From IMG/VR virus record IMGVR_UViG_3300042691_031247: a stretch of DNA of 64,000 nucleotides. The stretch is one strand, 5' to 3'. This document shows positions 15,625 to 52,070 of this stretch, piece by piece. The number at the start of each line of letters is the position of its first letter. Position 1 is the stretch's first letter. This DNA is from a virus. Taxonomy: Duplodnaviria > Caudoviricetes. The notes beneath the pieces are model-generated. The model searched no databases and was not told the origin of the DNA. It saw only the letters and a program-made list of their open reading frames with translations. Both the position numbers and the translations under genes were made by a program.

Positions 15625-17550
15625 TTGTGGTTCATGGATAAACCTGATCAAACAATTACTGAAGCGATTGACATGCCGTCCGCCGGCGTGCAATCACTTC
15701 TACAAGAATTAATCTCAATTGATGTGACGGATGTACATTCTGTTCACGCGCGAGCTGGTGTGTTGCAACAGCTCGCCGGCAGACATGCGTTTCCGTCGCT
15801 CGAACCTATTTTGCCGTTGGTTCTGAATCTTAATGGACGCCCGTACAGCATTCAGAATCATATGCCTTTTTCCCCACTTTTCCGGCTACTGACACCGAAA
15901 AATCAAGTGTGGTGCACGGGCCGTCAGGTATCAAAATCGACCAGCCTAGCAGCGCACGGAGTTGTAGTTGCCAACTCTCTCCCGTTTTTCAAAACGTTAT
16001 TCATCACACCGTTGTACGAACAGATACGCCGGTTTTCGAATAACTATGTGCGTCCGTTTATCGATCAGTCTCCTGTGAAGTCGCAATGGAGCGGCACGAC
16101 GACCGAGAATTCAGTTCTGCAAAGATCGTTTAAGAACAACTCAATGATGTTGTTCAGCTTTGCGCTTTTAGATTCGGATCGTATACGTGGTGTTTCTGCA
16201 GACCGCGTGTGTATCGACGAAGTTCAGGACATGGATCCTGATCACGTGCCGATCATTCAAGAAACGATGTCTTACTCCAAATGGGGAACTAGTTATTACA
16301 CAGGAACTCCGAAGACGCTAGATAACTTAATTTACGGATTGTATAAACGATCATCACAGGCCGAATGGTTTATACCGTGTCATTCCTGCAAGCACTGGAG
16401 CATCCCTTCGCTTGAGTATGACTTGGACAAAATGATCGGCCCGTACAGCCCGCATATCAGCGAGAATTATCCGGGCACCGTCTGCGCTAAATGTCAGAAA
16501 CCGATCAGCCCAAGGCATGGTCGGTGGGTGCATAGATATCCCGAACGCCGCTGGCAATTTGCCGGGTACCACGTACCACAGATGATACTGCCGCTTCATT
16601 TCTCCGACCCTGAAAAGTGGTCAACTCTATTGTTGAAGAGAGAAGGGTTTGGGAACATGACCCAAGCCCAGTTCTACAACGAAGTAATGGGAGAAAGCGT
16701 TGATACCGGTCAGAAGCTCATCAGCGAAACTGATTTGAAGGCTGCGTGCGTGCTAGACTGGGAAAACAAGAAAGAACCAGACCCTAAGTGCTTTGCAAAT
16801 CTCTCGAACTACAAACATCGCATCCTTGCGGTCGACTGGGGCGGCGGCGGAGAAGCAGGTATTAGTTTCACCGTGCTTGCTGTGCTGGGGTTCCGCCCGG
16901 ATGGGACCATCGACACGCTTTGGGCCAAGCGCCTGCTTATTGGCGGCGATCATTTGGCCGAAGCTGTTGAATGTATGCGCTGGTCTAACTTGTTTAATTG
17001 CGATTTTGTCGCTCACGATTACACGGGCGCCGGCACGGTCCGCGAAACGGTCATGGTGCAGGCAGGGTTTAATCTAGAGCGCGTCTTGGCGATGCGGCTT
17101 GTTCGTTCCGCATCGCAAGATTTGATGGTGTTCAAACCACCGACAGAGATCAATCATCGAGCACACTATAGCCTCGACAAAACGCGGTCGTTGCTGTACA
17201 CGTGTCAGGCGATCAAGCTGAAGCAAGTCCGTTTCTTCCAGTACGACTGGTCGTCACAGGATTCGCCGGGCTTGGTGTCGGACTTTCTTGCGTTGGTAGA
17301 AAGTAAAGCCGAGTCTAGACTAGGCGGCGATATTTATACCATTACAAGGAACACGTTGTTGACTGACGACTTCGCGCAAGCTGTTAACCTAGGCTGCGCC
17401 GCTCTTTGGCACGTGAATAACGCGTGGCCTAATTTCGCGGAGATCGCTGGCGTAGCGCGGTTAAGCGAGCGTGTTGTCAAAGCCGAGACGCCGATGGATG
17501 ACGACTGGGCGGATGACTCCATCGGGCGAAGCTACTTTGGCGGTTACTAG
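15625..17550 (+). CDS. terL: Terminase large subunit (lambda gpA-like ATPase plus nuclease); start may be ATG 15634 or 15673
   Basis: Walker A variant GRQVSKST, Walker B VCIDEVQD, TGTPK, CHSC...CAKC zinc motif, GYHVPQM, QFYNEVMG, nuclease AVDWG. Confidence 0.9.
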   Translation: MWFMDKPDQTITEAIDMPSAGVQSLLQELISIDVTDVHSVHARAGVLQQLAGRHAFPSLEPILPLVLNLNGRPYSIQNHMPFSPLFRLLTPKNQVWCTGRQVSKSTSLAAHGVVVANSLPFFKTLFITPLYEQIRRFSNNYVRPFIDQSPVKSQWSGTTTENSVLQRSFKNNSMMLFSFALLDSDRIRGVSADRVCIDEVQDMDPDHVPIIQETMSYSKWGTSYYTGTPKTLDNLIYGLYKRSSQAEWFIPCHSCKHWSIPSLEYDLDKMIGPYSPHISENYPGTVCAKCQKPISPRHGRWVHRYPERRWQFAGYHVPQMILPLHFSDPEKWSTLLLKREGFGNMTQAQFYNEVMGESVDTGQKLISETDLKAACVLDWENKKEPDPKCFANLSNYKHRILAVDWGGGGEAGISFTVLAVLGFRPDGTIDTLWAKRLLIGGDHLAEAVECMRWSNLFNCDFVAHDYTGAGTVRETVMVQAGFNLERVLAMRLVRSASQDLMVFKPPTEINHRAHYSLDKTRSLLYTCQAIKLKQVRFFQYDWSSQDSPGLVSDFLALVESKAESRLGGDIYTITRNTLLTDDFAQAVNLGCAALWHVNNAWPNFAEIAGVARLSERVVKAETPMDDDWADDSIGRSYFGGY

Positions 17551-18322: not shown

Positions 18323-18643
18323 TCAAGCCGTCTCTGCGGCAAGACGAGCCGTGGCGAGCGCGGCGTCGTAATTGCCACGCGCAATCATACGCGCGTGAGC
18401 GGCGTCACGGCACTGCCCCAGATAATCGGAGTAGTCGCTGTCGGTGTTGACGAGCGCTTCCGCCGAACTGAAGCTGTGCGGCTTGTTGGTCAGCGGGTTG
18501 TCGCCGCTTTTCATGATCCGCTCGACCGCAGCCATCTTGACAGAGATGCGGTTGTCTTCCAGCTCTGCCTCGCTGCGCACAGCGTCGGCAAGAACGGCGG
18601 CGGCGTGGGTAATGTTATCAGCAAAATTCTTGGCCATGATCAC
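18323..18643 (-). CDS. Hypothetical Ala-rich helical protein
   Basis: GAGGAG SD, high GC3. Confidence 0.65.
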   Translation of the reverse strand: MIMAKNFADNITHAAAVLADAVRSEAELEDNRISVKMAAVERIMKSGDNPLTNKPHSFSSAEALVNTDSDYSDYLGQCRDAAHARMIARGNYDAALATARLAAETA

Positions 18644-18924
18644 TCCTCAATTTTTTGCCAACCATCTATGGCGCGGCGAACAGTCAATATGTCGTCAAGC
18701 GCCCGGTCTAGCATGTGTACAGCCGATTCGAGATCGTCAGCGTCGGCTAATTCAAAGATAATAAACGCAAACAAGGTATCGCCGCATTCTCGAATACTCT
18801 GTTTGCCCACACGATTGATGTAATCGTGAAATGTTTCGTCGTTATTTGGCGGATCGACTGCGAGTAGGTCTGATCCCGGATATGAATCGTAAATTGCTTT
18901 CGGAACCAGTTGGCTATTCGTCAT
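18640..18924 (-). CDS. Hypothetical protein (GDTLFxFIxxEL motif)
   Basis: Start moved to ATG 18924 (GGAG SD). Confidence 0.65.
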   Translation of the reverse strand: MTNSQLVPKAIYDSYPGSDLLAVDPPNNDETFHDYINRVGKQSIRECGDTLFAFIIFELADADDLESAVHMLDRALDDILTVRRAIDGWQKIEE

Positions 18925-19168
18925 TTCTCCAGTTTTGTTTTTCTTGGCGCGTTGGCTGCCGTTTGGGATATTTCTCGGGATGACAAACCTGACAACGTGC
19001 GCGCGTGCAACCACAACTGCGCAACGTTTTACGATACCGCCCGGCTTCGCTCGCGGTTTGCGCCGCGTTTTCAACCCAACTACCAAACTCCAGCCACCCG
19101 GCATTAATTTGTCGGTGCTGCTTTACTCGGCGTTCGATGATGTGCTTTTCGCTGTGGTAACGTTTCAT
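18914..19168 (-). CDS. Small basic protein with CGC...C..C cluster
   Basis: 84-aa ORF; GGAGG SD. Confidence 0.6.
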   Translation of the reverse strand: MKRYHSEKHIIERRVKQHRQINAGWLEFGSWVENAAQTASEAGRYRKTLRSCGCTRARCQVCHPEKYPKRQPTRQEKQNWRNDE

Positions 19169-19658: not shown

Positions 19659-19731
19659 AGCCGGCGGTCGGATTCGAACCGACGACAGGCAGTTTACAAA
19701 ACTGCTACTCTACCAACTGAGTTACGCCGGC
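19659..19731 (-). tRNA. trnT: tRNA-Thr(UGU), no encoded CCA
   Basis: GCCGGCG acceptor stem, D-loop CAGTTGGTAG, anticodon arm GCAGT-TTTGTAA-ACTGC, T-loop GGTTCGAATCC. Confidence 0.95.
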
Positions 19732-19736
19732 AAGCG

Positions 19737-20204
19737 TTAAACAGGTTCAGTGATTAAACCAGTTGGCCAGTAGTATGGCATGTCGATCGGCTCCTGCCAA
19801 CCAAACCGTGAGTAGTAGCGGAAATCTTTGCGGAGAAGATTGCTGCGATGACTGGCGTGAAATTGCTCGTCGCCAACCCACGGAGGATACACGTTGCGCT
19901 CAATGGTGTTGCGCAACGTGGTATAGCTGCCCATGAACTGCGGGCAGAGCGTGTCATTAAACCCGCGGCGTATCCACTCGCGGCACACGACTATGGCGTA
20001 TACAGTTAGCGCTGTTTCATATCCCGCCCACATACGGACGGCAGGGTGATTGCGCCAGCTACTTGTTCCGGGCTCGTGTTGGCCAACCGGAACGCCAAGG
20101 CAGAGTAAGATCTGCTTACATTCAACCCTTTGTTTGCCTAACCTTTTGTTATCAAGGCAGGCAGCCGAGTGTTTGAATCTCGGCAGGGGCAAGAATGTTT
20201 GCAT
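19737..20204 (-). CDS. Pyrimidine-dimer DNA glycosylase-like protein (MSMEG_6728/DenV-like family)
   Basis: MQTFLP...LDNKRLGKQRVECKQIL...HPAVRMW.GYE...HASHRSNLLRKD. Confidence 0.85.
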   Translation of the reverse strand: MQTFLPLPRFKHSAACLDNKRLGKQRVECKQILLCLGVPVGQHEPGTSSWRNHPAVRMWAGYETALTVYAIVVCREWIRRGFNDTLCPQFMGSYTTLRNTIERNVYPPWVGDEQFHASHRSNLLRKDFRYYSRFGWQEPIDMPYYWPTGLITEPV

Positions 20205-23162: not shown

Positions 23163-24339
23163 GACAAATATCCCGCTCGATCAGGCGCATGACGTCAGTG
23201 GCCGCGAGACCCACAGGCTGACTACCCTGTACCCGCAACCTGACTTTGTAAAAAATGCCGCGCACGAAAAACTAAGCGGTGCCGCGGATTTACCACGCCA
23301 TTTATACGCTGATCAGCGCCATAAACTTTATCCGTGCCATACTGCCCCTGCAACATGGATGTCGGCGCTTTTCTTTGCTGACAAGCAAGCGCAGTTCGAC
23401 GCCAAGGAGGCCGAGGCTATTCAATCTAGGATACACCAAGCCGCCGAGTATTTTGGTATTCGCGGGGCTGTGGCGGAACTAGAAGAGAAGATTGCGGCCA
23501 GCTCGGCGCAGGATATTAACAGCCTGCCGGACTCGGAGTTCGCCATCGTGTGGGTCAGCGACGTAGGCGGTAAAGAGCGCCACTGGCCGCTGCGGAACGC
23601 CGAAGAAGTCAAGTTCGCTGCGGCGCATTTCAAGACATTCCGCGACAACTTTGTGTTCGACGACCGGCACGTGATCGCCACCAAGATCCTTGAAAAGGCC
23701 GCGCAATACGGCGCCGACGTTTCGGGCGCCGAGGGCTCGCTAGAGCTGGCGGCGGGTCTGGGTGCGTGCGCCGCCAAGGTCGCGAGCGACATGATCAAAG
23801 ACCGCGTAGGGCTCACCCGCCGGCAGCATTCGCAGCTGGCAGGCGAGTTGTCCAAGTTAGCCGAGGTTATCGACCAGAACCCTGAAAGGGCTCGTGCGGT
23901 CGAAATGCGGTTAAAGTTGGCAAGCGCGGTCGATAATTTCGATAGAAGCACCAACCTCTATCGCATGTACGACGCCGGCGGCCTACCGCGGCCGGAAGAA
24001 GTCCTGTTCGCCATTACTGAAAAGGTGGCGCGCGACTTTTTAGATAGCAATGTCGAAACCACCACTGGCAACGTCTACGCCCTCACTGATTTAGAGAAAC
24101 TAGCGGTTGAAGACGTACGCGAGTGGCTTGGCGACGACTTCGCAGACGCGGTAAGTGCCGGCGGCGTATACATGGATCGCGACAAGCTGGCGGCGATTGT
24201 GCCCACGCTTGACCGCGGCATGGCTACTATGCTGGACCGGCTCATGCAGGACAAGTCTGCTGCGCCGGTTGTGAAGTCAGCGTCAGCGGACAATCTGCTT
24301 TCGCTCGACCGGCTTCGCGAGCTTGCGCAGCACGGTTAA
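23161..24339 (+). CDS. Probable virion/head-assembly-associated protein with a duplicated LPxxxFA...RxxP motif (DUF6582-like)
   Basis: LPRHLYADQRHKLYPCH and LPDSEFAIVW...ERHWPLRN repeats; AGGA SD at 23151-23154. Confidence 0.55.
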   Translation: MTNIPLDQAHDVSGRETHRLTTLYPQPDFVKNAAHEKLSGAADLPRHLYADQRHKLYPCHTAPATWMSALFFADKQAQFDAKEAEAIQSRIHQAAEYFGIRGAVAELEEKIAASSAQDINSLPDSEFAIVWVSDVGGKERHWPLRNAEEVKFAAAHFKTFRDNFVFDDRHVIATKILEKAAQYGADVSGAEGSLELAAGLGACAAKVASDMIKDRVGLTRRQHSQLAGELSKLAEVIDQNPERARAVEMRLKLASAVDNFDRSTNLYRMYDAGGLPRPEEVLFAITEKVARDFLDSNVETTTGNVYALTDLEKLAVEDVREWLGDDFADAVSAGGVYMDRDKLAAIVPTLDRGMATMLDRLMQDKSAAPVVKSASADNLLSLDRLRELAQHG

Positions 24340-25410
24340 AGGGTTTTCGCCGCGTAGCGCAACACCGTAATTCGCTAATTGTTCTCGAACTTCGAAGAGC
24401 GTGGCGGCCCCGAAATTTTTATACTCTAGCAGATCAGCTGCGCGCATATTCGTTAGTTCGGCGACCGTTAGTATTCCCATCTTTGTCGTCACCTTCCTTG
24501 CGCGAACAGAGAGATTTAGTTCTGTGATCGATATGTCTGTGCTAAGATGCAGCCCGATTAGCGCAAGTTTTGTAACAATTTCGTCCACTGCAGAGTGGCT
24601 GCACTTTACGATATCGTACAAGTCACGGCGATCACGCGACACAAGCTCGCGCAGCGTAGAAATACCGGCAGCGTCAAGGAGTTGACTTGTTCGCTGTGAA
24701 AACCCTAGACGCGAAACTAGCTCGCCTAAAAGCTGGTCGTCTTCCATACCGAGCGCGAGCCCATGCGCGTTTAACAACTCTTCAATCTCAGCCAAACTTG
24801 TTTCCCCAAACCCTTTGGACGCGACCAGTTCTTCTTTCGTCATGCGGGACAAGTCGGCGAGAGTTTCGACGCCCATTTTTTTCAGCTCGTTACGACAGCG
24901 CACGGAAATTTCGACGTCGGCTATCGGGACGTGCGCGGCGGTCAGCAGCGCGTTCACCTGTGGCGGCGTTTTTGGTGCGCACAATACATACAAGATTTCA
25001 TCTAACACCGTTTCGCCGGAGTTTCGCGCAGTCAGCAAATCTTTGCGGCTGAGGCGTCCGAGGTCGCCGAGCGTAGCGATATTGTTATTTTCAAGAACGC
25101 TTCGCGTGCGTAAAGAAAATCGCGCTACGTCTAACCGTATAGCGTCTAGCAGCGTTGTCTCCATTTCTGGCGTTGTAATCGGTTTTACACGAATGTACTC
25201 GGGTATCGTTGTGTAAAGCGAGAGTACCGACCACAGACAATCAAGCTGCGTTTTTAGCGTTACGGCTGTTTGTGCGTGCGTCGGGTCTTCCGCGCTTGCG
25301 TAAACACCTTTTTTGACCGCAATTATCGCGAGTTCTGTTTTTGTTCGTATCAATCCGCACAGCCTATCGACGACCCAATCGAGCGTTTCGTTTACGGTTG
25401 TTTTTGTCAT
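24283..25410 (-). CDS. Protein with four tandem RNA polymerase alpha-CTD domains
   Basis: Four units with SxRxxxxL...GIxTLxDL...GxxxLxEI...L...GLxL; units 2 and 4 are near canonical (SVRCRNEL..KGFGETSLAEI; SVRARK..KNFGAATLFEV). Confidence 0.85.
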   Translation of the reverse strand: MTKTTVNETLDWVVDRLCGLIRTKTELAIIAVKKGVYASAEDPTHAQTAVTLKTQLDCLWSVLSLYTTIPEYIRVKPITTPEMETTLLDAIRLDVARFSLRTRSVLENNNIATLGDLGRLSRKDLLTARNSGETVLDEILYVLCAPKTPPQVNALLTAAHVPIADVEISVRCRNELKKMGVETLADLSRMTKEELVASKGFGETSLAEIEELLNAHGLALGMEDDQLLGELVSRLGFSQRTSQLLDAAGISTLRELVSRDRRDLYDIVKCSHSAVDEIVTKLALIGLHLSTDISITELNLSVRARKVTTKMGILTVAELTNMRAADLLEYKNFGAATLFEVREQLANYGVALRGENPLTVLRKLAKPVERKQIVR

Positions 25411-25425
25411 TGCGCTACCGTATTG

Positions 25426-25914
25426 TTATTTTTGTTTAACAGCTTTTTTTCGCTTGAACGCCTTCGCGAGCTTGCGAGGAGCTGGGGCTTTCTTTTTCTT
25501 CTTGCGCGGAGCCGGGCCAAACAACGACTTAATATGTCGGAGTACGGTCGCTTCGTTTGTACGTTTGTAGTTCACGTCGTCCCACGCTTGATCGGCGTGT
25601 TCGATTCCACGCCGCGCCGCCTCGACGTCGTGGATAAGGCTGTAGTCCGGGTTGTACCATTTGAACGCCCGCCCCTTGCCCTTGTTCCACTTAAAGTCTG
25701 CCACCGATATTTCATAGACGGTGTGCGTCATTGTATTGATAATTATTTGCGCTTGGCATTTAAACTCTTTGTTCGGCAGCCGGATTGTAGCCTCAAGTAT
25801 CTGCGCGTTGTCGCCGTAACAAGACCAGCAGTACTTTTCGCTGTCGCTTATTAAAAACCGGCAGGCGTTTAAAAAGCGATTAACACGCAGAGCACCGCAG
25901 TGATCAAATGTCAT
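25426..25914 (-). CDS. Hypothetical protein with basic C-terminal tail
   Basis: 162-aa ORF, ends PRKKKKKAPAPRK. Confidence 0.65.
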   Translation of the reverse strand: MTFDHCGALRVNRFLNACRFLISDSEKYCWSCYGDNAQILEATIRLPNKEFKCQAQIIINTMTHTVYEISVADFKWNKGKGRAFKWYNPDYSLIHDVEAARRGIEHADQAWDDVNYKRTNEATVLRHIKSLFGPAPRKKKKKAPAPRKLAKAFKRKKAVKQK

Positions 25915-26153
25915 TTTGATATCAACTCCTTTAATGCGTGAAACAGCCGGCGCACCGACGGCATGAGCTGCCGCTTTCTTAGCGGTTCAGCACCCGGCTC
26001 AACGTTCTGAGAAGATAAGCCGCCAGTGTGTTCTTCTAGTTCACTGCGGCAGTAGTCGAGGTAGAGCTGCCAGTTGTCGTAGGCGTCTCTGTCTTCGGCT
26101 CGTTCGTATGGGATGTAGGGGGGTTCGTCAGGGACTCTGTCGTTCCAGCCCAT
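25911..26153 (-). CDS. Hypothetical protein
   Basis: 80-aa ORF; AGGA SD. Confidence 0.55.
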   Translation of the reverse strand: MGWNDRVPDEPPYIPYERAEDRDAYDNWQLYLDYCRSELEEHTGGLSSQNVEPGAEPLRKRQLMPSVRRLFHALKELISK

Positions 26154-26326
26154 TGTTTGGTGTCCTTCTTTTTGCTCCCGTCAATTAATTCGCCACGCAC
26201 GATTGATGTCGTTTGCGGCGCCGTTAGTCCAATCTTGACGCGATCGCCTGTGATTCCCAAAACCTTCACGACGATCCCATCGCCAATTACGACTTCCTGT
26301 TCTTTCTTCCTTGAGAGTACAAGCAT
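26036..26326 (-). CDS. csrA: Carbon storage regulator CsrA-like translational repressor
   Basis: MLVLSRK...VIGDGIVVKVLGI.GDRVKIGLTAP...IVRGEL signature. Confidence 0.9.
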   Translation of the reverse strand: MLVLSRKKEQEVVIGDGIVVKVLGITGDRVKIGLTAPQTTSIVRGELIDGSKKKDTKQWAGTTESLTNPPTSHTNEPKTETPTTTGSSTSTTAAVN

Positions 26327-26336
26327 TGTGTCACCA

Positions 26337-27008
26337 TCATGATGTGGCTGAACCTTGTAACATTTTTACGACATACTCCGTGTTGCCGTTTTTAAGGTCC
26401 AGTGCGGCCATTTGTTTAATAAGTAAATCTGTCTTTAATCGAATTGACTGGTTGATATCTTCTGTCTTTCCGGCTTCCAAGTCGTAGACCGCGTTAAACA
26501 TCGCCGGGTCATCAGAGAAGTCTGTAATGTTGGGGCTGACCCGCGCGGCTCGGAGCGCGATGCGCAGGATGTCGGGGGCGTTGATGATCCCCTCGCTATC
26601 CAGCACGGCGCCAACGTAGCCGCGCACTTCGTCCGTAAACGGTTCTTTGTCGTCGTCTTCTGGCGGGCTGATGAGCAGGGCTTCGGTAATACCCCACGCG
26701 ACCTCTTCGGCGTCCGCGGGGTCCCACATATCGGGGCGGTATGTGTCGCCGCCCAGCACGTTGCAGAACGTCACGAAGTCAGGCAGGCTTTTGAAAAACT
26801 TGTCGGTCGTGAGGATCTGAATCGCGACTAGCAGCTTGTCGAGCGCCAGTTGGGGTAGCTCGACGTCGAACTCCTCTTCGATTTCGAGGGTGATCGTCGC
26901 CGGATCCCAGTCCAGCGCTTCAATGCCAAACTTATCCAGAAACAGGGTCAGTAGGACGCTCGCAAACGTCTCCCTGCTTTTCCAAGCTTCCTGCGCTATT
27001 GTCGACAT
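26337..27008 (-). CDS. Conserved acidic hypothetical protein (LDWDPATITLEIEEEF)
   Basis: Start moved to ATG 27008 (AGGA SD); high GC3. Confidence 0.7.
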   Translation of the reverse strand: MSTIAQEAWKSRETFASVLLTLFLDKFGIEALDWDPATITLEIEEEFDVELPQLALDKLLVAIQILTTDKFFKSLPDFVTFCNVLGGDTYRPDMWDPADAEEVAWGITEALLISPPEDDDKEPFTDEVRGYVGAVLDSEGIINAPDILRIALRAARVSPNITDFSDDPAMFNAVYDLEAGKTEDINQSIRLKTDLLIKQMAALDLKNGNTEYVVKMLQGSATS

Positions 27009-27465
27009 TGAGGCCATTCCTGCTCTTGATGATCTGCACGCCCCGGCGGTACAGCTCGCATAGATTATACGCGATCGTCTCCAGTGGCGGCCTAGGTAGC
27101 TGGGCAAGAGGCTCGCCCGCGTCGAGCGACACCCAGCCGGGAGCCCCGGTCCACGTGGCGTACCGCCCGTCGGCAAAAGCGAGTGTCTGACCGCAGCCGC
27201 TTGTAATTGCGTCGGCGTCAAGCTCAAGCTCTTCTTGCGTTCGCCGCATCATTTCGCTGACCAGCAAGCGCTGCTCGCTGGATAGGAACTGGAGATTTTC
27301 TAGCATGTCGGCGAGCAGCAGATAGAACACCGCCTCTTTGTCCACGTAGTCGCTGCCGGCGGCAAATCCGCGCTGTAAAACCGCGGTGAATACGCTGCGA
27401 ATTTGCAACTTGCTAAGTTTTATGACGCGCATTACCATATCAAGCGTCAGGTCTGTTTCTTCCAT
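26932..27465 (-). CDS. Hypothetical protein
   Basis: Start most likely ATG 27465; 77-nt overlap with the downstream gene. Confidence 0.55.
   Translation of the reverse strand: MEETDLTLDMVMRVIKLSKLQIRSVFTAVLQRGFAAGSDYVDKEAVFYLLLADMLENLQFLSSEQRLLVSEMMRRTQEELELDADAITSGCGQTLAFADGRYATWTGAPGWVSLDAGEPLAQLPRPPLETIAYNLCELYRRGVQIIKSRNGLNVDNSAGSLEKQGDVCERPTDPVSG
27410..27438 (+). promoter_or_regulatory. Candidate sigma70 promoter TTGCTA-N17-TACCAT for 27476..27754, lying inside the opposite-strand gene
   Basis: Hexamers at 27410-27415 and 27433-27438 with an exact 17-nt spacer. Confidence 0.5.
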
Positions 27466-27475
27466 GGAGGTATTT

Positions 27476-27754
27476 ATGTCCGTTTCCATCATTGACAACC
27501 TTTCTAATATCACTCAGGGCCGCGCCGAGATCATCGTGAGCGCTGATGGTATCGAGGAACTGCTGGCTGCCGCAACCTCGAACATGGTGCTGCAGAAGGC
27601 TGCGGAAGCTGGGTTGCATCGTCCGGGCGTGTCGAACGCCAGCGGCCCGTACCCGGTTGACGCCGACGGCAAAACAGACGACGAGCTGATGATGGGCAAG
27701 CGCGGCCCCGTCGTCGGTTATCGCCGAGATTTTGTTATCTTGGCGTCGCTTTGA
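27476..27754 (+). CDS. Small hypothetical protein, probably highly expressed
   Basis: GGAGGT SD at 27466-27471, high GC3. Confidence 0.75.
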   Translation: MSVSIIDNLSNITQGRAEIIVSADGIEELLAAATSNMVLQKAAEAGLHRPGVSNASGPYPVDADGKTDDELMMGKRGPVVGYRRDFVILASL

Positions 27755-28084
27755 TCAGGCGTCGTCTGGTCGGCTGACAATAAGCATATTCGTGGGCTTT
27801 CCGTAATCAAATGAGATAACGGCAAAGCACACGGGCGTCCTGCAGTCGATATCGAGCTTCTTCGTCGCGGCGTATCCGACGCGGAAGCTCGTTGTCTTTG
27901 CCGCTTTGATCGCGGCTGCTTTTGTCTTGAATAAACCGACCGGCACGTCGTCCATCGTGTGGCGCCAGACGACAAGGTGACCGGTTAGGCCCGGCACGAC
28001 CTCTGTGCCTTTTGGTTTGCGCAGCAGTTTATTCGCACCCGAGGCGCGCGGAGCGCGCCTCTTCTTTTGCGTTTTTGTTTTCAT
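27755..28084 (-). CDS. Basic hypothetical protein
   Basis: 109-aa ORF; GAGGA SD; stop abuts the plus-strand gene stop. Confidence 0.65.
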   Translation of the reverse strand: MKTKTQKKRRAPRASGANKLLRKPKGTEVVPGLTGHLVVWRHTMDDVPVGLFKTKAAAIKAAKTTSFRVGYAATKKLDIDCRTPVCFAVISFDYGKPTNMLIVSRPDDA

Positions 28085-28560
28085 TCCTCTACTCCAAACT
28101 TGTCGATATGCGCCAGTCTGGCGCAGTAGAACTCAGCCACAAGCCCGGCTACGTTGCCGAACCGTTTGACCATATCTGGAACTACCTGCTCGTTAAACAC
28201 GCGCAGGATAACTTTCCGAAACTTGGCGATGGCTTCTTTTGTGTAACCCTCTTCTCTCGCTTTTTCGGCGGCTTTGCGAATGTCTGCATTGCCGTCAAAC
28301 TGCAGTTGAAGATAAGCCGGGTTTACAAACTCAATGATGTGACCATAGACCTGCCGAACCTCGTAGGTGCACGGCACGTCAAATACACCGGGGCCGGGCC
28401 AGCGTTCACCGTTGACCGCGTCTTTTGACAGATACCGCAGCTTTCCCAGCGTCCAACCGAATGCCGCTGCATCATCATTCGGTTCAGCCATGACGAAGGC
28501 TGGTTTTGGCGCTGGCGGTTGTTTGTCAAGTTTTGTTGCAGATTTACTTTTACGCGCCAT
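28081..28560 (-). CDS. Hypothetical protein
   Basis: 159-aa ORF. Confidence 0.65.
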   Translation of the reverse strand: MARKSKSATKLDKQPPAPKPAFVMAEPNDDAAAFGWTLGKLRYLSKDAVNGERWPGPGVFDVPCTYEVRQVYGHIIEFVNPAYLQLQFDGNADIRKAAEKAREEGYTKEAIAKFRKVILRVFNEQVVPDMVKRFGNVAGLVAEFYCARLAHIDKFGVEE

Positions 28561-28598
28561 GATTCACAATAGCTAAGGAAAATTGGGACAGTTTTAAA

Positions 28599-28671
28599 TT
28601 CTGACCGTGTAGCCGGGAGTCACATCAGCCGTCATAAGACGATTAGATGTGTCCCGACTACACAGTCAGAA
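28599..28671 (-). ncRNA. Long intergenic hairpin (about 30 bp), candidate structured RNA or processing site
   Basis: Minus strand TTCTGACTGTGTAGTCGGGA-CACATC...GATGTG(AC)TCCCGGCTACACGGTCAGAA; outer-stem mismatches are G.U on this strand. Confidence 0.5.
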
Positions 28672-28682
28672 CACGCCGAAGA

Positions 28683-29057
28683 TCAATCTCCGGCGGTGCA
28701 AGCAAGGTACGCATGGTAGCGCGCTAATTCCTCAATGTTAGGATCAACCTCTCTAAAGATTGGCTCATCATCCATAGTAGCCAGCTCACCACGAAAGAGC
28801 GCGGTCGTATACTCGTGATACATCCGAGCCATATCACCGCGCAGTTTCTTCTTGGTGAATTTAAGCACGCGCTCCTTCAAAAAGGCGGCGCGTTCCCAGA
28901 AGTTCGGAATCACATCAAGCTGGTCCCGAAACTTCTCTGCAGTTCTCTCGAAAAGCTTATGCGCCTTATCAGGTACAATCTGAAATTGAGGCGCGGTCTT
29001 TTTGCATCGAGCGGTAACTGCAAGGCGGATCTGCTCCGCCGGGTCCGAAAGAAGCAT
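28683..29057 (-). CDS. Hypothetical protein
   Basis: 124-aa ORF; GGAG upstream. Confidence 0.6.
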   Translation of the reverse strand: MLLSDPAEQIRLAVTARCKKTAPQFQIVPDKAHKLFERTAEKFRDQLDVIPNFWERAAFLKERVLKFTKKKLRGDMARMYHEYTTALFRGELATMDDEPIFREVDPNIEELARYHAYLACTAGD

Positions 29058-29224
29058 GCGTTAACTCCGTTGTAACGCGGTAGAAAAGAGCTGCTGATAC
29101 TGCACAGCAGCAACATTAAATATGCCGCGATTTTGGCAGAAATTTAGCTGCCGTTCGGCGTTCGCGAATTGCGAAAGTGCCTGTTATTACAGGACTTACG
29201 GCGCGGTATAGCGTGTTCTGGAAA

Positions 29225-29317
29225 ATGGAAAATGCAACCGCCGCCCCGCGCTGCCTAAGAGCGTGAAGCCCGTGGGTTACGTGGCACGTAACCCGTCAGC
29301 AGACCGCAGGGCGGCGG
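29225..29317 (-). ncRNA. Three-way-junction RNA followed by a U-rich tail (structured terminator or ncRNA)
   Basis: Closing stem CCGCCGCCCTGCG/CGCGGGGCGGCGG plus CTGC/GCAG, 9-bp hairpin GGGTTACGT/ACGTAACCC, 4-bp hairpin, then TTGCATTTTCCATTTT. Confidence 0.5.
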
Positions 29318-29347
29318 AAGATCGCAGCCTACGCGTGGCAGGTGCGG

Positions 29348-29650
29348 CTAGAAGGTCAGCTGCACAACTTGGCCGCCGGAGTTCACGTAGATCACGCGAA
29401 CCGTTTTGGCGTCCAGCAGCGACTTGAGCTGTGTCTTTTTTTCACTGCTCATGCCGGCAAGACAAGATTTAATTTGCGCCATGGCGTTGCGACGCTTTTC
29501 TTGTTTCTTTTGCGCGCACGCACTGCACCCGCCGCCCGAAGACTTGAGCACGTCCCGCTTGTTGTAAAAACAGGGGATGGACTCGGCGTACGCCGGGTCG
29601 TTCAGTAATGATATTATTGTGCTGTCTTCTAGCACTACCATGTCGCGCAT
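29348..29650 (-). CDS. Small CxxC protein (GGGCSAC), last gene of the tail operon
   Basis: Start moved to ATG 29650 (GAGGT SD). Confidence 0.7.
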   Translation of the reverse strand: MRDMVVLEDSTIISLLNDPAYAESIPCFYNKRDVLKSSGGGCSACAQKKQEKRRNAMAQIKSCLAGMSSEKKTQLKSLLDAKTVRVIYVNSGGQVVQLTF

Positions 29651-49629: not shown

Positions 49630-50451
49630 CTAAAAAGTGCTTTGTGTGTATTGCTTGTCTAACATCGCTTGAATTTTTGCTGCGCGTTGGCTTACGGCGC
49701 CGGGCGTAATGTTTAATCGGCGAGCAATCTCTTGCGTGCTCGTTTTGCGCCGGCCGTTGCGCCCCAGCGTCATGTCAGCAACAAGCTTGTCGATCGGACT
49801 CAGATCTTCGTAGACAAACTTAAACCACGCGTCCGCCGCTCGCGTGCTGTTCGGAATTGTGCTCGCGACGTCGCCGCCGTAGCTTTCTTCGTCCATAACT
49901 TCGCGTGTTGTCATGCCTTCAGATACAGGCTGATTGAACGCACGAATCTTTTGAATACGGCGCGTAGACAACCCGGTGGCGTCCGCGACTTCATCGTCGG
50001 TCGGCTCGCGGCCAAGCTGGTCACGCAGTTCGTTTTCGCTCTCGTTGAGTCGCGTGTAATCTAACCCTACTTGTTCCGGGATAGCGATAATGTTTTGATT
50101 CTGGGCCGATACCCGCCGGAGACTCTGCAGCTGCGACAGAAGATGTGTGCGCACATTCCCGCGGTTGGGGTCGTACGTGTCGAGCGCTTTTAACGCCATA
50201 AGCTTGGCTCGCGACCGGATTGTCGGGCTGGCGGCTTGCCCGGCGTAACTCATCACCGCGGTGTCGATTACAGGCTGAAGTGTCTGCAGCAGCGCCGAGC
50301 TGGTCTCGGGGGTTTTGTGGGCGGCCCACTGCGGGTACAGACTGTCAAACTCCGGGCTGACGCCGGCTGGTTTTTTAGCTGAAAACGGTGGCGGGGTGTC
50401 GCCCAGTATGGACGGCATGCCTTGCTGCTTTTTGTTATTTATATCGGTCAT
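49630..50451 (-). CDS. Phage sigma70-family sigma factor (FliA/SigF-like regions 2, 3 and 4)
   Basis: ALKALDTYDPNRG (region 2), LGREPTDDEVADATGL (region 3), LSPIDKLV...TQEIARRLNITPGAVSQ (region 4 HTH); ATG 50451 overlaps the hub stop. Confidence 0.88.
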   Translation of the reverse strand: MTDINNKKQQGMPSILGDTPPPFSAKKPAGVSPEFDSLYPQWAAHKTPETSSALLQTLQPVIDTAVMSYAGQAASPTIRSRAKLMALKALDTYDPNRGNVRTHLLSQLQSLRRVSAQNQNIIAIPEQVGLDYTRLNESENELRDQLGREPTDDEVADATGLSTRRIQKIRAFNQPVSEGMTTREVMDEESYGGDVASTIPNSTRAADAWFKFVYEDLSPIDKLVADMTLGRNGRRKTSTQEIARRLNITPGAVSQRAAKIQAMLDKQYTQSTF

Positions 50452-52070
50452 TTCAGCGTATATCCCGACCATTTTTGGCCTTTGTACAGCGGCGCAGTTT
50501 CTTGCGTAATTTTATTGGTTCTGAGATCTTCTAACTCGGTGCGAATGTACGACAAATCAAGCGACGTGCCGGCGAGGGCGCGTTCGGCGTTAATCGCGTA
50601 AGACACCTTCGTGACTGCCGCAATTAAATGCCCGCCGCCCTTACCAACGTCGCCGTCAGGGAGTTTAATTTTAACGATACTGCCCGGCGCAATATCAAAA
50701 CGCAGTTTACCAGACAGTTCGCCGTATCTTTGGCTTAAAAACTCGGTGTGGTAAAAGTGTTTTGCAAAACGTGTGCATACCTCGTTGTACATGGCATCGG
50801 CGAGTTCGGCTGGCTTTTTCCAGCCGGCCGGTAACGACGATTCACCTGTCTGTGGCGCAAGGCAGTCGCCCGGCCGTTTGCCGCCCTCGCCGGTCGTCGG
50901 CCCGCACATGATCGGCCACGGCGACGTGTTCGCCAACCACGATGGTAAGTCTTTAAATAGCTTTAAACCTTGCTGCGGTTTTTGCGCCGTAGCAGCGTCG
51001 GGCCACTGACCGGACGGCGTCGAAAACTTATCGCTGCTCTGCATGTCACCGCCGAGATGCAGCATAGGATCCATTTGCGCCGGCCAGAACACCGTCACGT
51101 TCTCGATCAGCTGGTGCATGGTCGAGTTAAAGTTGGCGTAGCTATAGTCGTCCGCGTGGATAGTGAGTTTGTCGCTACCGCTAAATTTAAGCCCGCCAAA
51201 AAAAGGAATGACGTACGCTTTGTCGATACACGGCGACACGGCAAAGAAAAACTGCGACGCATAATCACCGACGAGCGTGCTCCAAAATGTTGTATACGCA
51301 AACGATTCAACCGCGTCTTTGGTGAGCGCCTGCCGGACAGACATCTCGGCATTCAAACCGACGCCACTAATATCTAAACTCAATTTTGCCGGACCACTAA
51401 AACTAGGCGCTTCGTCGGGCATGCGCGCGAGGGCTTTGAGCGCGGCGTCATTTGGATCGTTTGACGACGTCTTCCACCCGGCCATGGTTTTAAAAATTGG
51501 TTTAATAACGTCGCCCCACAAATTCTGACTGATATTTGACTCAGTGATAATTTTTTCGTTGGCGTCGATAATCGGGACAGGTGACCAAACGTTTCCGTCG
51601 CTCGTTTGCAGCGCTTCGAAAGCTGCGTTCTGCGCCATCAAAAACGGCGCGTTTGGCGCCCACTTGCCATTAAGCGCAGACGAGTTATTCAGGTCGTCGA
51701 GCCAGTGCACGACGTTGATGACGTAATTGGCGCTATTGTGCGAACGCTGATACCCGACGCTGACCAAAAAACCTTCAAATATCTTTATCTCGCCGCTTTC
51801 CATTTTGTCTGTCTTACCGGCTGACGGTGTAATGGTTAAAAACACTTCAACCGGCGCGCGGGGCTGCAGCGCCACTTTTGCCATATGAATAGTCGCCGGT
51901 GCTCCGCCGCGGGCGTTTTGACCAACGGCGACAGTGATACTCGCGGTCGGTATTGTGTTCAGCGGAAACGACGCCGAAATCGCAACAATCTCATTACTAA
52001 AATCAAACCCAGCTATCTTTGCGCGGAGTTTAAATTTTGTGTGTACGTAATTCGGGTTCAGCTCGGTCAT
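50448..52070 (-). CDS. Baseplate hub protein (gp27/gpD-like)
   Basis: KIFEGFLVSVGY N-terminal and GKLRFDIAPGSIVKI...VTKVSYAI C-terminal patterns; position. Confidence 0.7.
   Translation of the reverse strand: MTELNPNYVHTKFKLRAKIAGFDFSNEIVAISASFPLNTIPTASITVAVGQNARGGAPATIHMAKVALQPRAPVEVFLTITPSAGKTDKMESGEIKIFEGFLVSVGYQRSHNSANYVINVVHWLDDLNNSSALNGKWAPNAPFLMAQNAAFEALQTSDGNVWSPVPIIDANEKIITESNISQNLWGDVIKPIFKTMAGWKTSSNDPNDAALKALARMPDEAPSFSGPAKLSLDISGVGLNAEMSVRQALTKDAVESFAYTTFWSTLVGDYASQFFFAVSPCIDKAYVIPFFGGLKFSGSDKLTIHADDYSYANFNSTMHQLIENVTVFWPAQMDPMLHLGGDMQSSDKFSTPSGQWPDAATAQKPQQGLKLFKDLPSWLANTSPWPIMCGPTTGEGGKRPGDCLAPQTGESSLPAGWKKPAELADAMYNEVCTRFAKHFYHTEFLSQRYGELSGKLRFDIAPGSIVKIKLPDGDVGKGGGHLIAAVTKVSYAINAERALAGTSLDLSYIRTELEDLRTNKITQETAPLYKGQKWSGYTLK

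What the first reader, a model, noticed from the sequence alone, without database searches (positions are those of the whole stretch)
24283..25410. Four tandem RNAP alpha-CTDs on a short helical N-terminus
Seen: four alpha-CTD units and no alpha-NTD, so it cannot assemble into the RNAP core. The DNA-contacting Arg (SxR) is kept in all four units. Established: alpha-CTD binds UP elements and is the contact surface for CRP-type activators, NusA and Spx-like factors. Inference: a multivalent decoy that titrates host activators, or a tethered UP-element binder that boosts phage promoters. Host planctomycetes have multi-alpha-CTD proteins, so it may be a captured regulator.
Basis: partly seen in the sequence, partly recalled or inferred. 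Interest (0 to 1): 0.7.

Follow-up and report, generated by a model that had tools for sequence, protein, structure and literature searches.

The report
Phage protein of four alpha-CTD domains
A large uncultured lake phage carries an optional gene whose product strings together four copies of the promoter-docking domain of bacterial RNA polymerase. At least two copies were taken from a conserved but unstudied Planctomycetota protein, so it probably imitates or competes with that host factor, though its function is untested.

Summary
Each unit passes the Pfam cut-off on its own, and units 2, 3 and 4 superpose on solved alpha-CTDs at Z 12-13.5. There is no alpha-NTD.

New here: units 2 and 4 are not RpoA-derived. 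In order, they are the two alpha-CTDs of a conserved Planctomycetota protein (TPR repeats plus two alpha-CTDs). The tree and AU tests reject an RpoA origin. Units 1 and 3 are of unresolved origin.

The gene is a 1149-bp accessory insert flanked by a 29-nt direct repeat. It is absent from 18 of 22 related phage loci and from 4 of 5 near-complete relatives, which all encode a beta' subunit and no alpha-NTD. It is therefore not a core subunit of the phage's own RNA polymerase. A 3-unit allele exists. Four related loci (two distinct sequences) carry a single-unit gene of the same type elsewhere. The gene evolves about five times faster (dN/dS) than its neighbours.

Best reading (function inferred, not shown): a TPR-less multivalent mimic or competitor of the host factor at promoter DNA or RNA polymerase.

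The scan had already noted this same stretch in an overlapping window, but not on other DNA.

The parts
24283..25410 (-). Whole gene, 375 aa (P0001): N-terminal helical hairpin, four alpha-CTD units, basic tail
   Evidence: ORF; Pfam PF03118 x4, E 1.4e-46; the identical protein is on 15 metagenomic contigs
25135..25410 (-). aa 1-92: orphan N-terminal part. It has two long helices (3-33, 43-64) and a Pro-rich linker carrying the conserved motif IPEYIRVKPI..P (aa 69-81).
   Evidence: No Pfam family. No homologue outside its own cluster among 1.84 billion representatives. Model pLDDT 35-55. Motif residues P70 I73 R74 K76 P77 P81 are invariant in four alleles. dN/dS 0.21.
24961..25134 (-). aa 93-150: alpha-CTD unit 1. 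It lacks the C-terminal GLxLG loop. R101 is the R265 equivalent. Origin unresolved.
   Evidence: PF03118 34.1 bits alone; long branch inside the TPR_u1 clade, but grouping with RpoA is not rejected (p 0.11)
24745..24936 (-). aa 159-222: alpha-CTD unit 2, acidic (net -4). It is the counterpart of the first alpha-CTD of the Planctomycetota TPR-2xalpha-CTD protein. R171.
   Evidence: 58.5 bits. Z 12-13 to solved alpha-CTDs. 57% identity to host u1 against 40% to host RpoA. 5 of 9 u1-diagnostic residues. AU rejects RpoA grouping, p 0.004.
24541..24720 (-). aa 231-290: alpha-CTD unit 3, the most degenerate. G296 and the NFG hairpin motif are lost; R240 is kept. The unit is absent from the three-unit alleles P0003 and P0200.
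   Evidence: 32.9 bits. Folded alone: Z 13.1, rmsd 1.2 A. Nearest to the RpoA/small-protein class, but on a long branch. Alignments.
24349..24540 (-). aa 291-354: alpha-CTD unit 4, basic helix 1 (SVRARK). It is the counterpart of the second alpha-CTD of the host protein, ends LRGE like the host's LRGD/E, and is the most constrained unit. R303.
   Evidence: 54.3 bits. Z 13.5. Clade with host u2 at 100/99. 7 of 11 diagnostic residues. dN/dS 0.15.
24283..24348 (-). aa 355-375 plus stop: basic tail. Its last 14 aa (RKLAKPVERKQIVR) are the former C-terminus of the neighbouring 162-aa gene. This part overlaps the convergent 392-aa gene by 57 nt.
   Evidence: The relative without the insert (L123) ends its 162-aa homologue with ...RKLAKALKRKQIVR; overlap seen
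24299..24327 (.). Direct repeat, copy 1 (right edge of the insert as the gene is read)
   Evidence: 29 nt, 90% identical to 25448-25476, spacing 1149 nt; a single copy at the empty site of L123
25448..25476 (.). Direct repeat, copy 2, inside the 3' end of the upstream 162-aa gene
   Evidence: L139 carries its own version of the same duplication
25426..25914 (-). Upstream 162-aa gene (Cys-rich N-terminus, Lys-rich tail), 15 nt from the alpha-CTD gene start. It also evolves fast.
   Evidence: 46-48% identity between phages whose flanking genes are 77-98% identical; no family match

Best explanation
The gene is an optional (accessory) gene of a roughly 200-kb freshwater myophage that presumably infects Planctomycetota.

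Shown. Its core is the tandem alpha-CTD pair of a conserved Planctomycetota protein (about 270 aa of TPR repeats followed by two alpha-CTDs). The pair is kept in the original order as units 2 and 4 and stripped of the TPR domain. It has been enlarged with one or two further alpha-CTD-like units (1 and 3) and joined to a new N-terminal helical hairpin and a conserved Pro-rich linear motif. It entered the phage as a 1149-bp insert in the 3' end of a neighbouring gene.

Inferred mechanism. The protein works as a TPR-less, multivalent stand-in for the host factor. The basic u2-type unit 4 (SVRARK helix, R265-type Arg, GxTS hairpin) anchors it in the minor groove of promoter-proximal DNA. The acidic u1-type unit 2 keeps the D/E patch that in E. 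coli alpha-CTD touches sigma region 4, and it offers a protein-contact face. The protein would thus occupy the docking sites of the host TPR-alpha-CTD factor without bringing the TPR effector part, which would disconnect or redirect host promoter control during infection. The N-terminal hairpin and linear motif probably provide oligomerisation or a new partner.
For: Domain identity is shown.

Host origin of U2 and U4:
- The alignment is gapless. U2 is 57% identical to host u1 (72% in allele P0003) and U4 is 56% identical to host u2, against 38-40% to host RpoA.
- ML tree: U4 with host u2 at 100/99; U2 inside the host u1 clade at 92/89.
- AU tests reject U2+RpoA (p 0.004), U4+RpoA (p 0.006) and a single clade of all phage units (p 0.0007).
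- Type-specific residues are kept: 5-7 of 9 and 5-9 of 11, against 0-2 for other classes.
- The host family is widespread. At least 493 species genomes hold it, and the 80 best are nearly all labelled Planctomycetota. Each of 5 genomes checked has RpoA, this protein and a small single-alpha-CTD protein.

Accessory status:
- The gene is absent from 18 of 22 related IMG/VR loci, where the 162-aa gene abuts the 392-aa gene directly.
- Four of 5 relatives that are at least 95% complete have no alpha-CTD anywhere, yet all 5 have beta' and none has an alpha-NTD.
- The insert is flanked by a 29-nt direct repeat, and the empty site holds one chimeric copy.

Selection for this particular domain type:
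- A three-unit allele sits at the same site.
- Four related loci (two distinct sequences: L121/L122 and L130/L132) carry a single u2-type alpha-CTD gene at another site, 64-69% identical to host u2.
- U4 and the N-terminus are under purifying selection (dN/dS 0.15 and 0.21), and the ORF is intact in alleles down to 44-48% identity.

Host-interaction flavour: whole-gene dN/dS is 0.38 against 0.03-0.08 in conserved neighbours. Protein identity is 44-76% where flanking genes are 77-98%.

DNA-contact residues: the R265 equivalent is present in 10 of 11 phage units, and G296 in units 1, 2 and 4.
Against: No binding or activity was measured. The function of the host TPR-2xalpha-CTD protein is itself unknown: no paper was found, and its gene context (KdsA-like DAHP synthase upstream, Rho_N+DUF4912 protein downstream) gives only a weak nucleic-acid hint.

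Unit 2 of this allele has Glu at the C269 position next to the DNA-contact Arg and is acidic. Unit 3 has lost G296. So not all units can bind DNA like RpoA alpha-CTD.

dN/dS near 0.9 in units 2-3 (72 and 67 codons, one pair of sequences) could mean relaxed constraint rather than an arms race.

The host phylum is inferred from sequence similarity only. Insert GC (50%) is far from host gene GC (63-67%), so the capture is old and the present target may have shifted.
Confidence: 0.45

Rival explanations
1. The protein is a trans-acting alpha-CTD supply for the phage's own polymerase. The phage encodes beta, beta' and sigma but no alpha, and this protein would give that alpha-less enzyme UP-element-like DNA anchoring and a sigma region 4 contact at a subset of phage promoters.
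For: The phage sigma lies in the window (49630-50472, Sigma70_r3 above cut-off). Beta' is present and alpha-NTD absent in 5 of 5 near-complete relatives. The R265-type Arg is kept in all four units, and the acidic 261-type patch (A-D-E / D-D-E) is kept in unit 2.
Against: The gene is missing from 18 of 22 related loci and from 4 of 5 near-complete genomes with the same beta'. It evolves much faster than the core genes. The units derive from the host TPR protein, not RpoA. No A/T-rich tracts stand at intergenic promoters in the window.
Confidence: 0.2
2. This is the first reader's main idea: a decoy for partners of the RpoA alpha-CTD. The array would soak up host activators, NusA or Spx-like factors that normally dock on RNA polymerase alpha-CTD, shutting down activated host promoters.
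For: All four units have the alpha-CTD fold or family match. Multivalency fits titration. Unit 3 sits nearest the RpoA/small-protein class, and grouping it with RpoA is not rejected (p 0.20). The gene is fast-evolving and accessory, as host-targeting genes often are.
Against: Units 2 and 4 are significantly not RpoA-type. The 287-determinant positions differ from host RpoA in every unit. Unit 3, the only RpoA-like one, is dispensable, being absent from the three-unit alleles.
Confidence: 0.12
3. The protein is a general helix-hairpin-helix DNA binder with a structural or DNA-handling role (nucleoid coating, packaging or head-associated, like the PmgS-type match) that is unrelated to transcription.
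For: There is a local match to phrog_1660, PmgS-like head morphogenesis (E 2.2e-5), and weak HHH_5 and DUF4332 matches. The gene lies between the tail genes and terL.
Against: The PHROG match covers only one alpha-CTD unit (aa 144-213). The whole protein is near neutral (net -2, pI 6.3). It is optional in the phage group.
Confidence: 0.08
4. The insert is a passenger or decaying remnant with no present function.
For: Distribution is patchy. dN/dS is near 0.9 in units 2-3. Unit 3 is degenerate, and its Arg is lost in P0002.
Against: The reading frame is intact in four alleles down to 44-48% identity and identical on 15 contigs. dN/dS is 0.15-0.21 in unit 4 and the N-terminus. A linear motif and an N-terminal motif are conserved. 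The stretch is held in runs from 13 studies of freshwater and lake metagenomes.
Confidence: 0.08
5. The protein is an anti-defence decoy imitating the alpha-CTD-like domain found inside defence proteins such as the BREX/Pgl kinase PglW.
For: Unit 4 matches an internal stretch (801-865 of 1403) of the PglW profile, at PADLOC E 9.7e-11 and NCBIfam E 4.4e-8.
Against: The match is one domain long and far below the family cut-off (31 against 990 bits). The units are much closer to the housekeeping TPR protein. No defence context was examined.
Confidence: 0.05

Closest known systems
Planctomycetota TPR + 2x alpha-CTD proteins (about 442 aa; for example P0004 = L010:3001-4326; NCBI name 'DNA-directed RNA polymerase subunit alpha C-terminal domain-containing protein' or 'tetratricopeptide repeat protein'); uncharacterised
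   Same: Units 2 and 4 correspond to its first and second alpha-CTD, in the same order. They share type-specific residues and the same LRG(D/E) end.
   Different: The phage protein has no TPR domain. It has an orphan helical N-terminus, one or two extra alpha-CTD units, and a borrowed basic tail. It is phage-borne, optional and fast-evolving.
C-terminal domain of bacterial RNA polymerase alpha subunit (RpoA; Pfam PF03118; structures 1COO, 1LB2, 3K4G, 1Z3E, 9ZUM)
   Same: Same fold (Z 12-13.5, rmsd about 1 A). The R265-type Arg is in all four units, and the G296 hairpin is in three.
   Different: There is no alpha-NTD, so it cannot join the core enzyme. It has four domains per chain. N268 is kept only in unit 2, and the K298 lysine is absent from every unit, though host RpoA also lacks it. 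It scores below the rpoA equivalog cut-off (139 against 227.8 bits).
Single-alpha-CTD small phage genes in relatives (L121:1322-1657, L130:79-510; also the 76-aa proteins P0192, P0198, P0199)
   Same: Same u2-type alpha-CTD (64-69% identical to host u2), in the same phage group.
   Different: They have one unit, no N-terminal hairpin and a different genomic site. Whether they stem from one capture or several is unresolved.
Phage factors that act on the host alpha-CTD: T4 Alt/ModA ADP-ribosylation of R265 (PMC2988021), phage G1 gp67 blocking alpha-CTD/UP use (PMC3694059), phiKMV Rac-induced alpha cleavage (PMC7552054)
   Same: All concern the alpha-CTD node of promoter control during infection. 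This comparison rests on established knowledge and on titles and abstracts seen.
   Different: Those factors modify, block or remove the host domain. This phage encodes copies of such a domain. No paper describing a phage-encoded alpha-CTD was found.
Arash-like phages with their own beta, beta' and sigma (Salmonella phage Arash, PMC10585845)
   Same: The phage carrying this gene belongs to a group with a bacterial-type polymerase and sigma. In Arash these proteins are found in virions.
   Different: No alpha or alpha-CTD protein is reported in Arash. tblastn of this protein against 50,697 GenBank phage records found only short single-domain matches, in fragment records that are probably host DNA.

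Membership tests
Pfam PF03118 RNA_pol_A_CTD (domain family) | Each unit scores above the curated gathering cut-off (23.8 bits) | tested here: met
   U1 34.1, U2 58.5, U3 32.9, U4 54.3 bits when scanned separately
Pfam PF03118 RNA_pol_A_CTD (domain family) | Compact four-helix alpha-CTD fold with a helix-hairpin-helix | tested here: met
   U2 and U4: Z 12-13.5, rmsd 0.8-1.2 A. U3 alone: Z 13.1, rmsd 1.2 A over 67 aa. U1 shows only the same helix pattern at pLDDT 56-80.
Bacterial RNA polymerase alpha subunit (RpoA, TIGR02027) | N-terminal dimerisation and assembly domain (PF01193 / PF01000) | tested here: not met
   aa 1-92 match no Pfam family. rpoA equivalog scores 139 bits against a cut-off of 227.8, with matches only to model positions 233-298.
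RpoA alpha-CTD DNA-binding '265 determinant' (E. coli R265, N268, C269, G296, K298, S299) | These residues are conserved | tested here: inconclusive
   R265 is in 4 of 4 units. N268 is in U2 only. C269 is in none (E in U2). G296 is in U1, U2 and U4. K298 is in none, and host RpoA has T there too. S/T299 is in U2 and U4. Binding itself was not testable.
Planctomycetota TPR-2xalpha-CTD protein family | Two alpha-CTDs of types u1 then u2 at the C-terminus | tested here: met
   U2 falls in the u1 clade (92/89) and U4 in the u2 clade (100/99). Diagnostic residues and AU tests agree.
Planctomycetota TPR-2xalpha-CTD protein family | N-terminal TPR array of about 270 aa | tested here: not met
   No TPR match in P0001, whereas P0004 matches many TPR models
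PmgS-like head morphogenesis proteins (phrog_1660) | Match along the profile | tested here: not met
   Only profile positions 316-385 of 405 match (aa 144-213, one alpha-CTD unit), E 2.2e-5
BREX/Pgl kinase PglW (NF033442 / PDLC02512) | Whole-protein score above cut-off; kinase domain present | tested here: not met
   31 bits against a cut-off of 990. Only aa 289-357 match profile positions 795-865.

The most novel reading that the evidence does not exclude
Phages of Planctomycetota have taken the alpha-CTD modules of a conserved, unstudied host promoter factor (TPR-2xalpha-CTD), possibly more than once, and built TPR-less mimics with one, three or four domains. This would be the first viral alpha-CTD mimic: a protein that competes for promoter DNA or RNA polymerase docking sites instead of modifying the host alpha subunit. 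It would also expose a second, alpha-CTD-based layer of transcription control in a whole bacterial phylum.
Probability: 0.4. Interest if true: 0.75.

Novelty: new variant of a known kind. Interest (0 to 1): 0.62.

Why it matters
Phages are known to modify, block or cleave the host polymerase's alpha-CTD. A phage that encodes its own alpha-CTD array would be a different strategy, namely domain mimicry at the promoter-docking node.

The finding also points to its source. The TPR-2xalpha-CTD protein is present in hundreds of Planctomycetota species and has no described function. The phage copies show which part of it matters (the u2-type domain) and give a compact tool to probe it.

The phage also carries its own beta, beta' and sigma but no alpha. 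The protein therefore gives a concrete way to test whether alpha-less phage polymerases ever use alpha-CTD functions supplied in trans.

Tried and rejected
- Whole genome of the window: none is held, and the 204-kb ENA contig is not searchable. Near-complete IMG/VR relatives were used instead.
- Pattern scans of IMG/VR with P0001 and with the alpha-CTD alignment found no relative. This is weak evidence, because the scans depend on the patterns used.
- tblastn against GenBank phages found nothing at 1e-5. At E up to 1 it found only single-domain matches in short, unannotated records that look like host rpoA fragments.
- N-terminal domain: no sequence homologue. Atlas structural look-alikes are generic helical hairpins such as TraM and relaxase linkers, which are not informative.
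- Complex prediction of two copies of aa 1-95 gave no verdict (score 0.03). It is not used as evidence either way.
- RNA evidence: no RNA holder was listed for the gene or the 4.2-kb stretch.
- The sigma-70-type promoter and terminator scan of 23900-29500 found no more sites than in shuffled sequence.
- A/T-rich tracts (at least 17 of 20): only 13 in 64 kb, mostly inside genes, with no UP-like pattern at intergenic regions.
- Number of captures: the u2-only tree puts all phage sequences at the base of the host clade on long branches, so one capture and several captures cannot be told apart.
- Longer proteins (658-2000 aa) gave no hit, which is weak evidence. Among shorter hits, the 133-aa two-unit proteins include at least one frameshifted host gene on a low-coverage contig. 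Genuine TPR-less two-unit cellular proteins also exist (P0134, P0135).
- Literature: no paper on planctomycete TPR-alpha-CTD proteins or on phage-encoded alpha-CTDs.
Full report
**1. What is there**

window:24283-25410 on the minus strand is a 375-aa ORF (P0001). The ATG lies five codons after the upstream in-frame stop and 15 nt after the stop of the preceding 162-aa gene. Its 3' end overlaps the convergent 392-aa gene by 57 nt.

Pfam finds four RNA_pol_A_CTD stretches with a whole-protein E of 1.4e-46. Each unit scanned alone passes the curated cut-off of 23.8 bits:

| Unit | Residues scanned | Bits |
|---|---|---|
| U1 | 86-152 | 34.1 |
| U2 | 153-226 | 58.5 |
| U3 | 224-292 | 32.9 |
| U4 | 288-375 | 54.3 |

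An AlphaFold model built on 20 sequences has mean pLDDT 65.5. It gives four repeats of the same four-helix pattern.
- U2 and U4 (pLDDT 82-89) superpose on solved alpha-CTDs at Z 12-13.5 and rmsd about 1 A.
- U3 folded alone (pLDDT 85.7, with an alignment made of alpha-CTD units) gives Z 13.1, rmsd 1.2 A over 67 residues.
- U1 lacks the last GLxLG loop and rests on Pfam plus the helix pattern.

Residues 1-92 match no family. They have no homologue outside their own cluster among 1.84 billion representatives. They are modelled, at low confidence, as a two-helix hairpin followed by a Pro-rich linker.

There is no alpha-NTD. The rpoA equivalog scores 139 bits against a cut-off of 227.8.

**2. Setting**

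The window is part of a roughly 204-kb metagenomic phage contig.
- The large terminase is at 15625-17550.
- A sigma factor is at 49630-50472, and a CsrA at 26036-26326.
- Earlier notes of this scan report a phage-encoded beta/beta' polymerase beyond the window end. I checked this on five relatives that are at least 95% complete (194-205 kb). All five carry a beta'-type frame of about 1470 aa, and none has an alpha-NTD.
- The cultured relative named in those notes, Salmonella phage Arash, packs beta, beta' and sigma in its virions and lists no alpha (PMC10585845).
- The stretch is held in runs from 13 studies of freshwater and lake metagenomes.

**3. Where the units come from**

After the phage's own alleles, the nearest proteins are about 442-aa Planctomycetota proteins made of TPR repeats plus two C-terminal alpha-CTDs (E about 1e-30).
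- This family is present in at least 493 species genomes. The 80 best loci are nearly all labelled Planctomycetota.
- Five such genomes each carry three alpha-CTD genes: RpoA, the TPR protein, and a small single-domain protein.

All units align without gaps.

| Comparison | Identity |
|---|---|
| U2 to host first unit (u1) | 57% (72% in allele P0003) |
| U4 to host second unit (u2) | 56% |
| U2 and U4 to host RpoA | 38-40% |

(All.)

- In the ML tree, U4 joins u2 at 100/99 and U2 lies in the u1 clade at 92/89.
- AU tests reject U2 with RpoA (p 0.004), U4 with RpoA (p 0.006), and all phage units as one clade, meaning simple in-phage duplication of one unit (p 0.0007).
- Type-diagnostic residues agree: U2 keeps 5-7 of 9 u1-specific residues and U4 keeps 5-9 of 11 u2-specific residues, against 0-2 for other classes.
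- U4 even keeps the host's terminal LRG(D/E).
- U1 sits on a long branch in the u1 clade, but RpoA is not rejected (p 0.11).
- U3 sits nearest the RpoA/small class. Placing it with u1 is rejected (p 0.013, a post-hoc test), but the other placements are not. Their origins remain open.
- Insert GC is 50%, against 55% for the window and 63-67% for the host genes, so the capture is not recent.

**4. The gene is an optional insert**

The 392-aa neighbour finds 22 related IMG/VR loci at 64-93% identity.
- In 18 of these loci there is no alpha-CTD. The homologue of the 162-aa gene lies directly convergent to the 392-aa gene.
- Whole-record searches show no alpha-CTD anywhere in 4 of 5 near-complete relatives.
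- In the window the insert is bounded by a 29-nt direct repeat (24299-24327 and 25448-25476, 90% identical, 1149 nt apart).
- At the empty site of L123, a single copy encodes ...RKLAKALKRKQIVR. This equals the last residues of P0001 (RKLAKPVERKQIVR), while the window's 162-aa gene keeps the other copy (...RKLAKAFKRKKAVKQK).
- The basic tail of the alpha-CTD protein is therefore the old C-terminus of the neighbour gene, held in place by the overlap with the 392-aa gene.
- The same duplication, with its own sequence variant, flanks the three-unit allele in L139. Recombination between the repeats would delete the gene cleanly, which may explain the patchy distribution. This last point is inference.

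**5. Variants**

- P0002 is 76% identical and has four units, but its U3 Arg is Gln.
- P0003 and P0200 are 47-48% identical. P0200 is 317 aa, lies on a 206,882-bp contig at the same site, and lacks U3.
- All alleles keep the N-terminal motif NETLDW(V/I)VDR and the linker motif IPEYIRVKPI..P.
- Four related loci (two distinct sequences, L121/L122 and L130/L132) instead carry a small gene with one u2-type alpha-CTD, 64-69% identical to host u2. It sits at a different site, between the GNAT gene and the next genes.
- Similar 76-aa proteins occur on short contigs.
- A u2-only tree cannot tell one capture from several.

**6. Evolutionary rate**

Between phages whose flanking proteins are 77-98% identical, this protein is 44-76% identical and the upstream 162-aa protein 46-48%.

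dN/dS values for P0001 against P0002:

| Region | dN/dS |
|---|---|
| Whole gene | 0.38 |
| Three conserved neighbours | 0.03-0.08 |
| N-terminus | 0.21 |
| U1 | 0.58 |
| U2 | 0.87 |
| U3 | 0.97 |
| U4 | 0.15 |

This is one pair of sequences with short segments, so the per-unit values are rough.

**7. Reading**

Shown: the protein is a phage accessory protein built around the alpha-CTD pair of a host TPR-2xalpha-CTD protein, without the TPR part.

Inferred: it imitates or competes with that factor.
- Unit 4 and the host u2 are basic (host u2 net +4), with an SVRARK helix.
- This is the only domain type that also occurs alone in relatives, and it is the most constrained unit, which fits a DNA anchor.
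- Unit 2 and the host u1 are acidic. They keep the D/E patch that in E. coli alpha-CTD (D259, E261) meets sigma region 4. That contact is established knowledge; the residues are.
- The TPR effector part is replaced by a new hairpin and a linear motif.

I put this reading at about 0.45.
- The trans-acting alpha-CTD for the alpha-less phage polymerase (0.2) is attractive, but it is weakened by the gene's absence from most relatives with the same polymerase.
- The RpoA-partner decoy (0.12) is weakened by the non-RpoA origin of the constrained units.
- A generic HhH DNA binder, a passenger remnant and an anti-defence mimic remain minor options. The last is prompted by the local match of U4 to an internal stretch of the PglW profile.

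**8. Novelty**

The domain and the principle of host-domain capture are both known.
- No paper describing a phage-encoded alpha-CTD, or the planctomycete TPR-alpha-CTD family, was found.
- Apart from probable host fragments, none turned up in 50,697 GenBank phage records.
- Proteins with three or four units appear only in this phage lineage among the proteins scored.

I rate it a new variant of a known kind, with interest 0.62. The same stretch had been noted once before by this scan in an overlapping window, but not on other DNA.

Noticed in passing
window:26036-26326 (-): An intact CsrA domain (PF02599, E 1.2e-19, aa 1-49) lies about 630 nt upstream of the alpha-CTD gene. The ORF runs on for about 45 further residues and overlaps the next 80-aa ORF (25911-26153). 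CsrA is 84-92% identical in close relatives (46-77% in the more distant loci; none detected in L126/L134).
   Followed up: partly
window:25426-25914 (-) and 25911-26153 (-): The 162-aa protein (Cys-rich N-terminus, Lys-rich tail) and the 80-aa protein just upstream match no family. They are also unusually divergent between close relatives (46-48% and 68-74% identity where flanking genes are 77-98%).
   Followed up: partly
window:18917-19186 (-): A 90-aa stop-to-stop frame overlaps the called 154-aa ORF (18640-19104) in another frame. It has clear homologues in relatives (L121:1545-1832, 95 aa; L130:284-502, 72 aa) with the motif CQLCHPEKYPKR. It is probably a real small gene missed by gene callers.
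   Followed up: no
P0001 aa 289-357 (window:24340-24546): Unit 4 matches an internal part (about 795-865 of about 1400) of the BREX/Pgl kinase PglW profiles (PADLOC E 9.7e-11; NCBIfam E 4.4e-8). This suggests PglW contains an alpha-CTD-like helix-hairpin-helix domain.
   Followed up: no
L010:4535-5638 (+) and equivalents in 43 of 47 host loci: The host TPR-2xalpha-CTD gene is almost always followed on the same strand by a 368-aa protein with Rho_N and DUF4912 domains. A KdsA-like DAHP synthase is encoded divergently just upstream. Neither the pair nor its function is described.
   Followed up: partly
G001-G005 (loci L104-L108, L110): Planctomycetota genomes also carry a highly conserved small protein (116-140-aa frames, 92% identity across genomes) that consists of one alpha-CTD. 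This is a third alpha-CTD gene beside RpoA and the TPR protein.
   Followed up: partly
window:19171-19623 (-) and 19737-20204 (-): A GNAT acetyltransferase and a pyrimidine-dimer DNA glycosylase (Pyr_excise) sit near a tRNA-Thr gene (19659-19731). The glycosylase is present in some otherwise near-identical contigs and not called in others (L001 against L002, L005, L008), so it is another optional gene.
   Followed up: no
L137:10001-10519; P0135: TPR-less proteins made of just two alpha-CTDs (171-172 aa) exist in cellular contigs, next to PEPCK and inositol phosphatase genes. One lies on an 812-kb contig. The host family therefore also has naturally TPR-free forms.
   Followed up: partly
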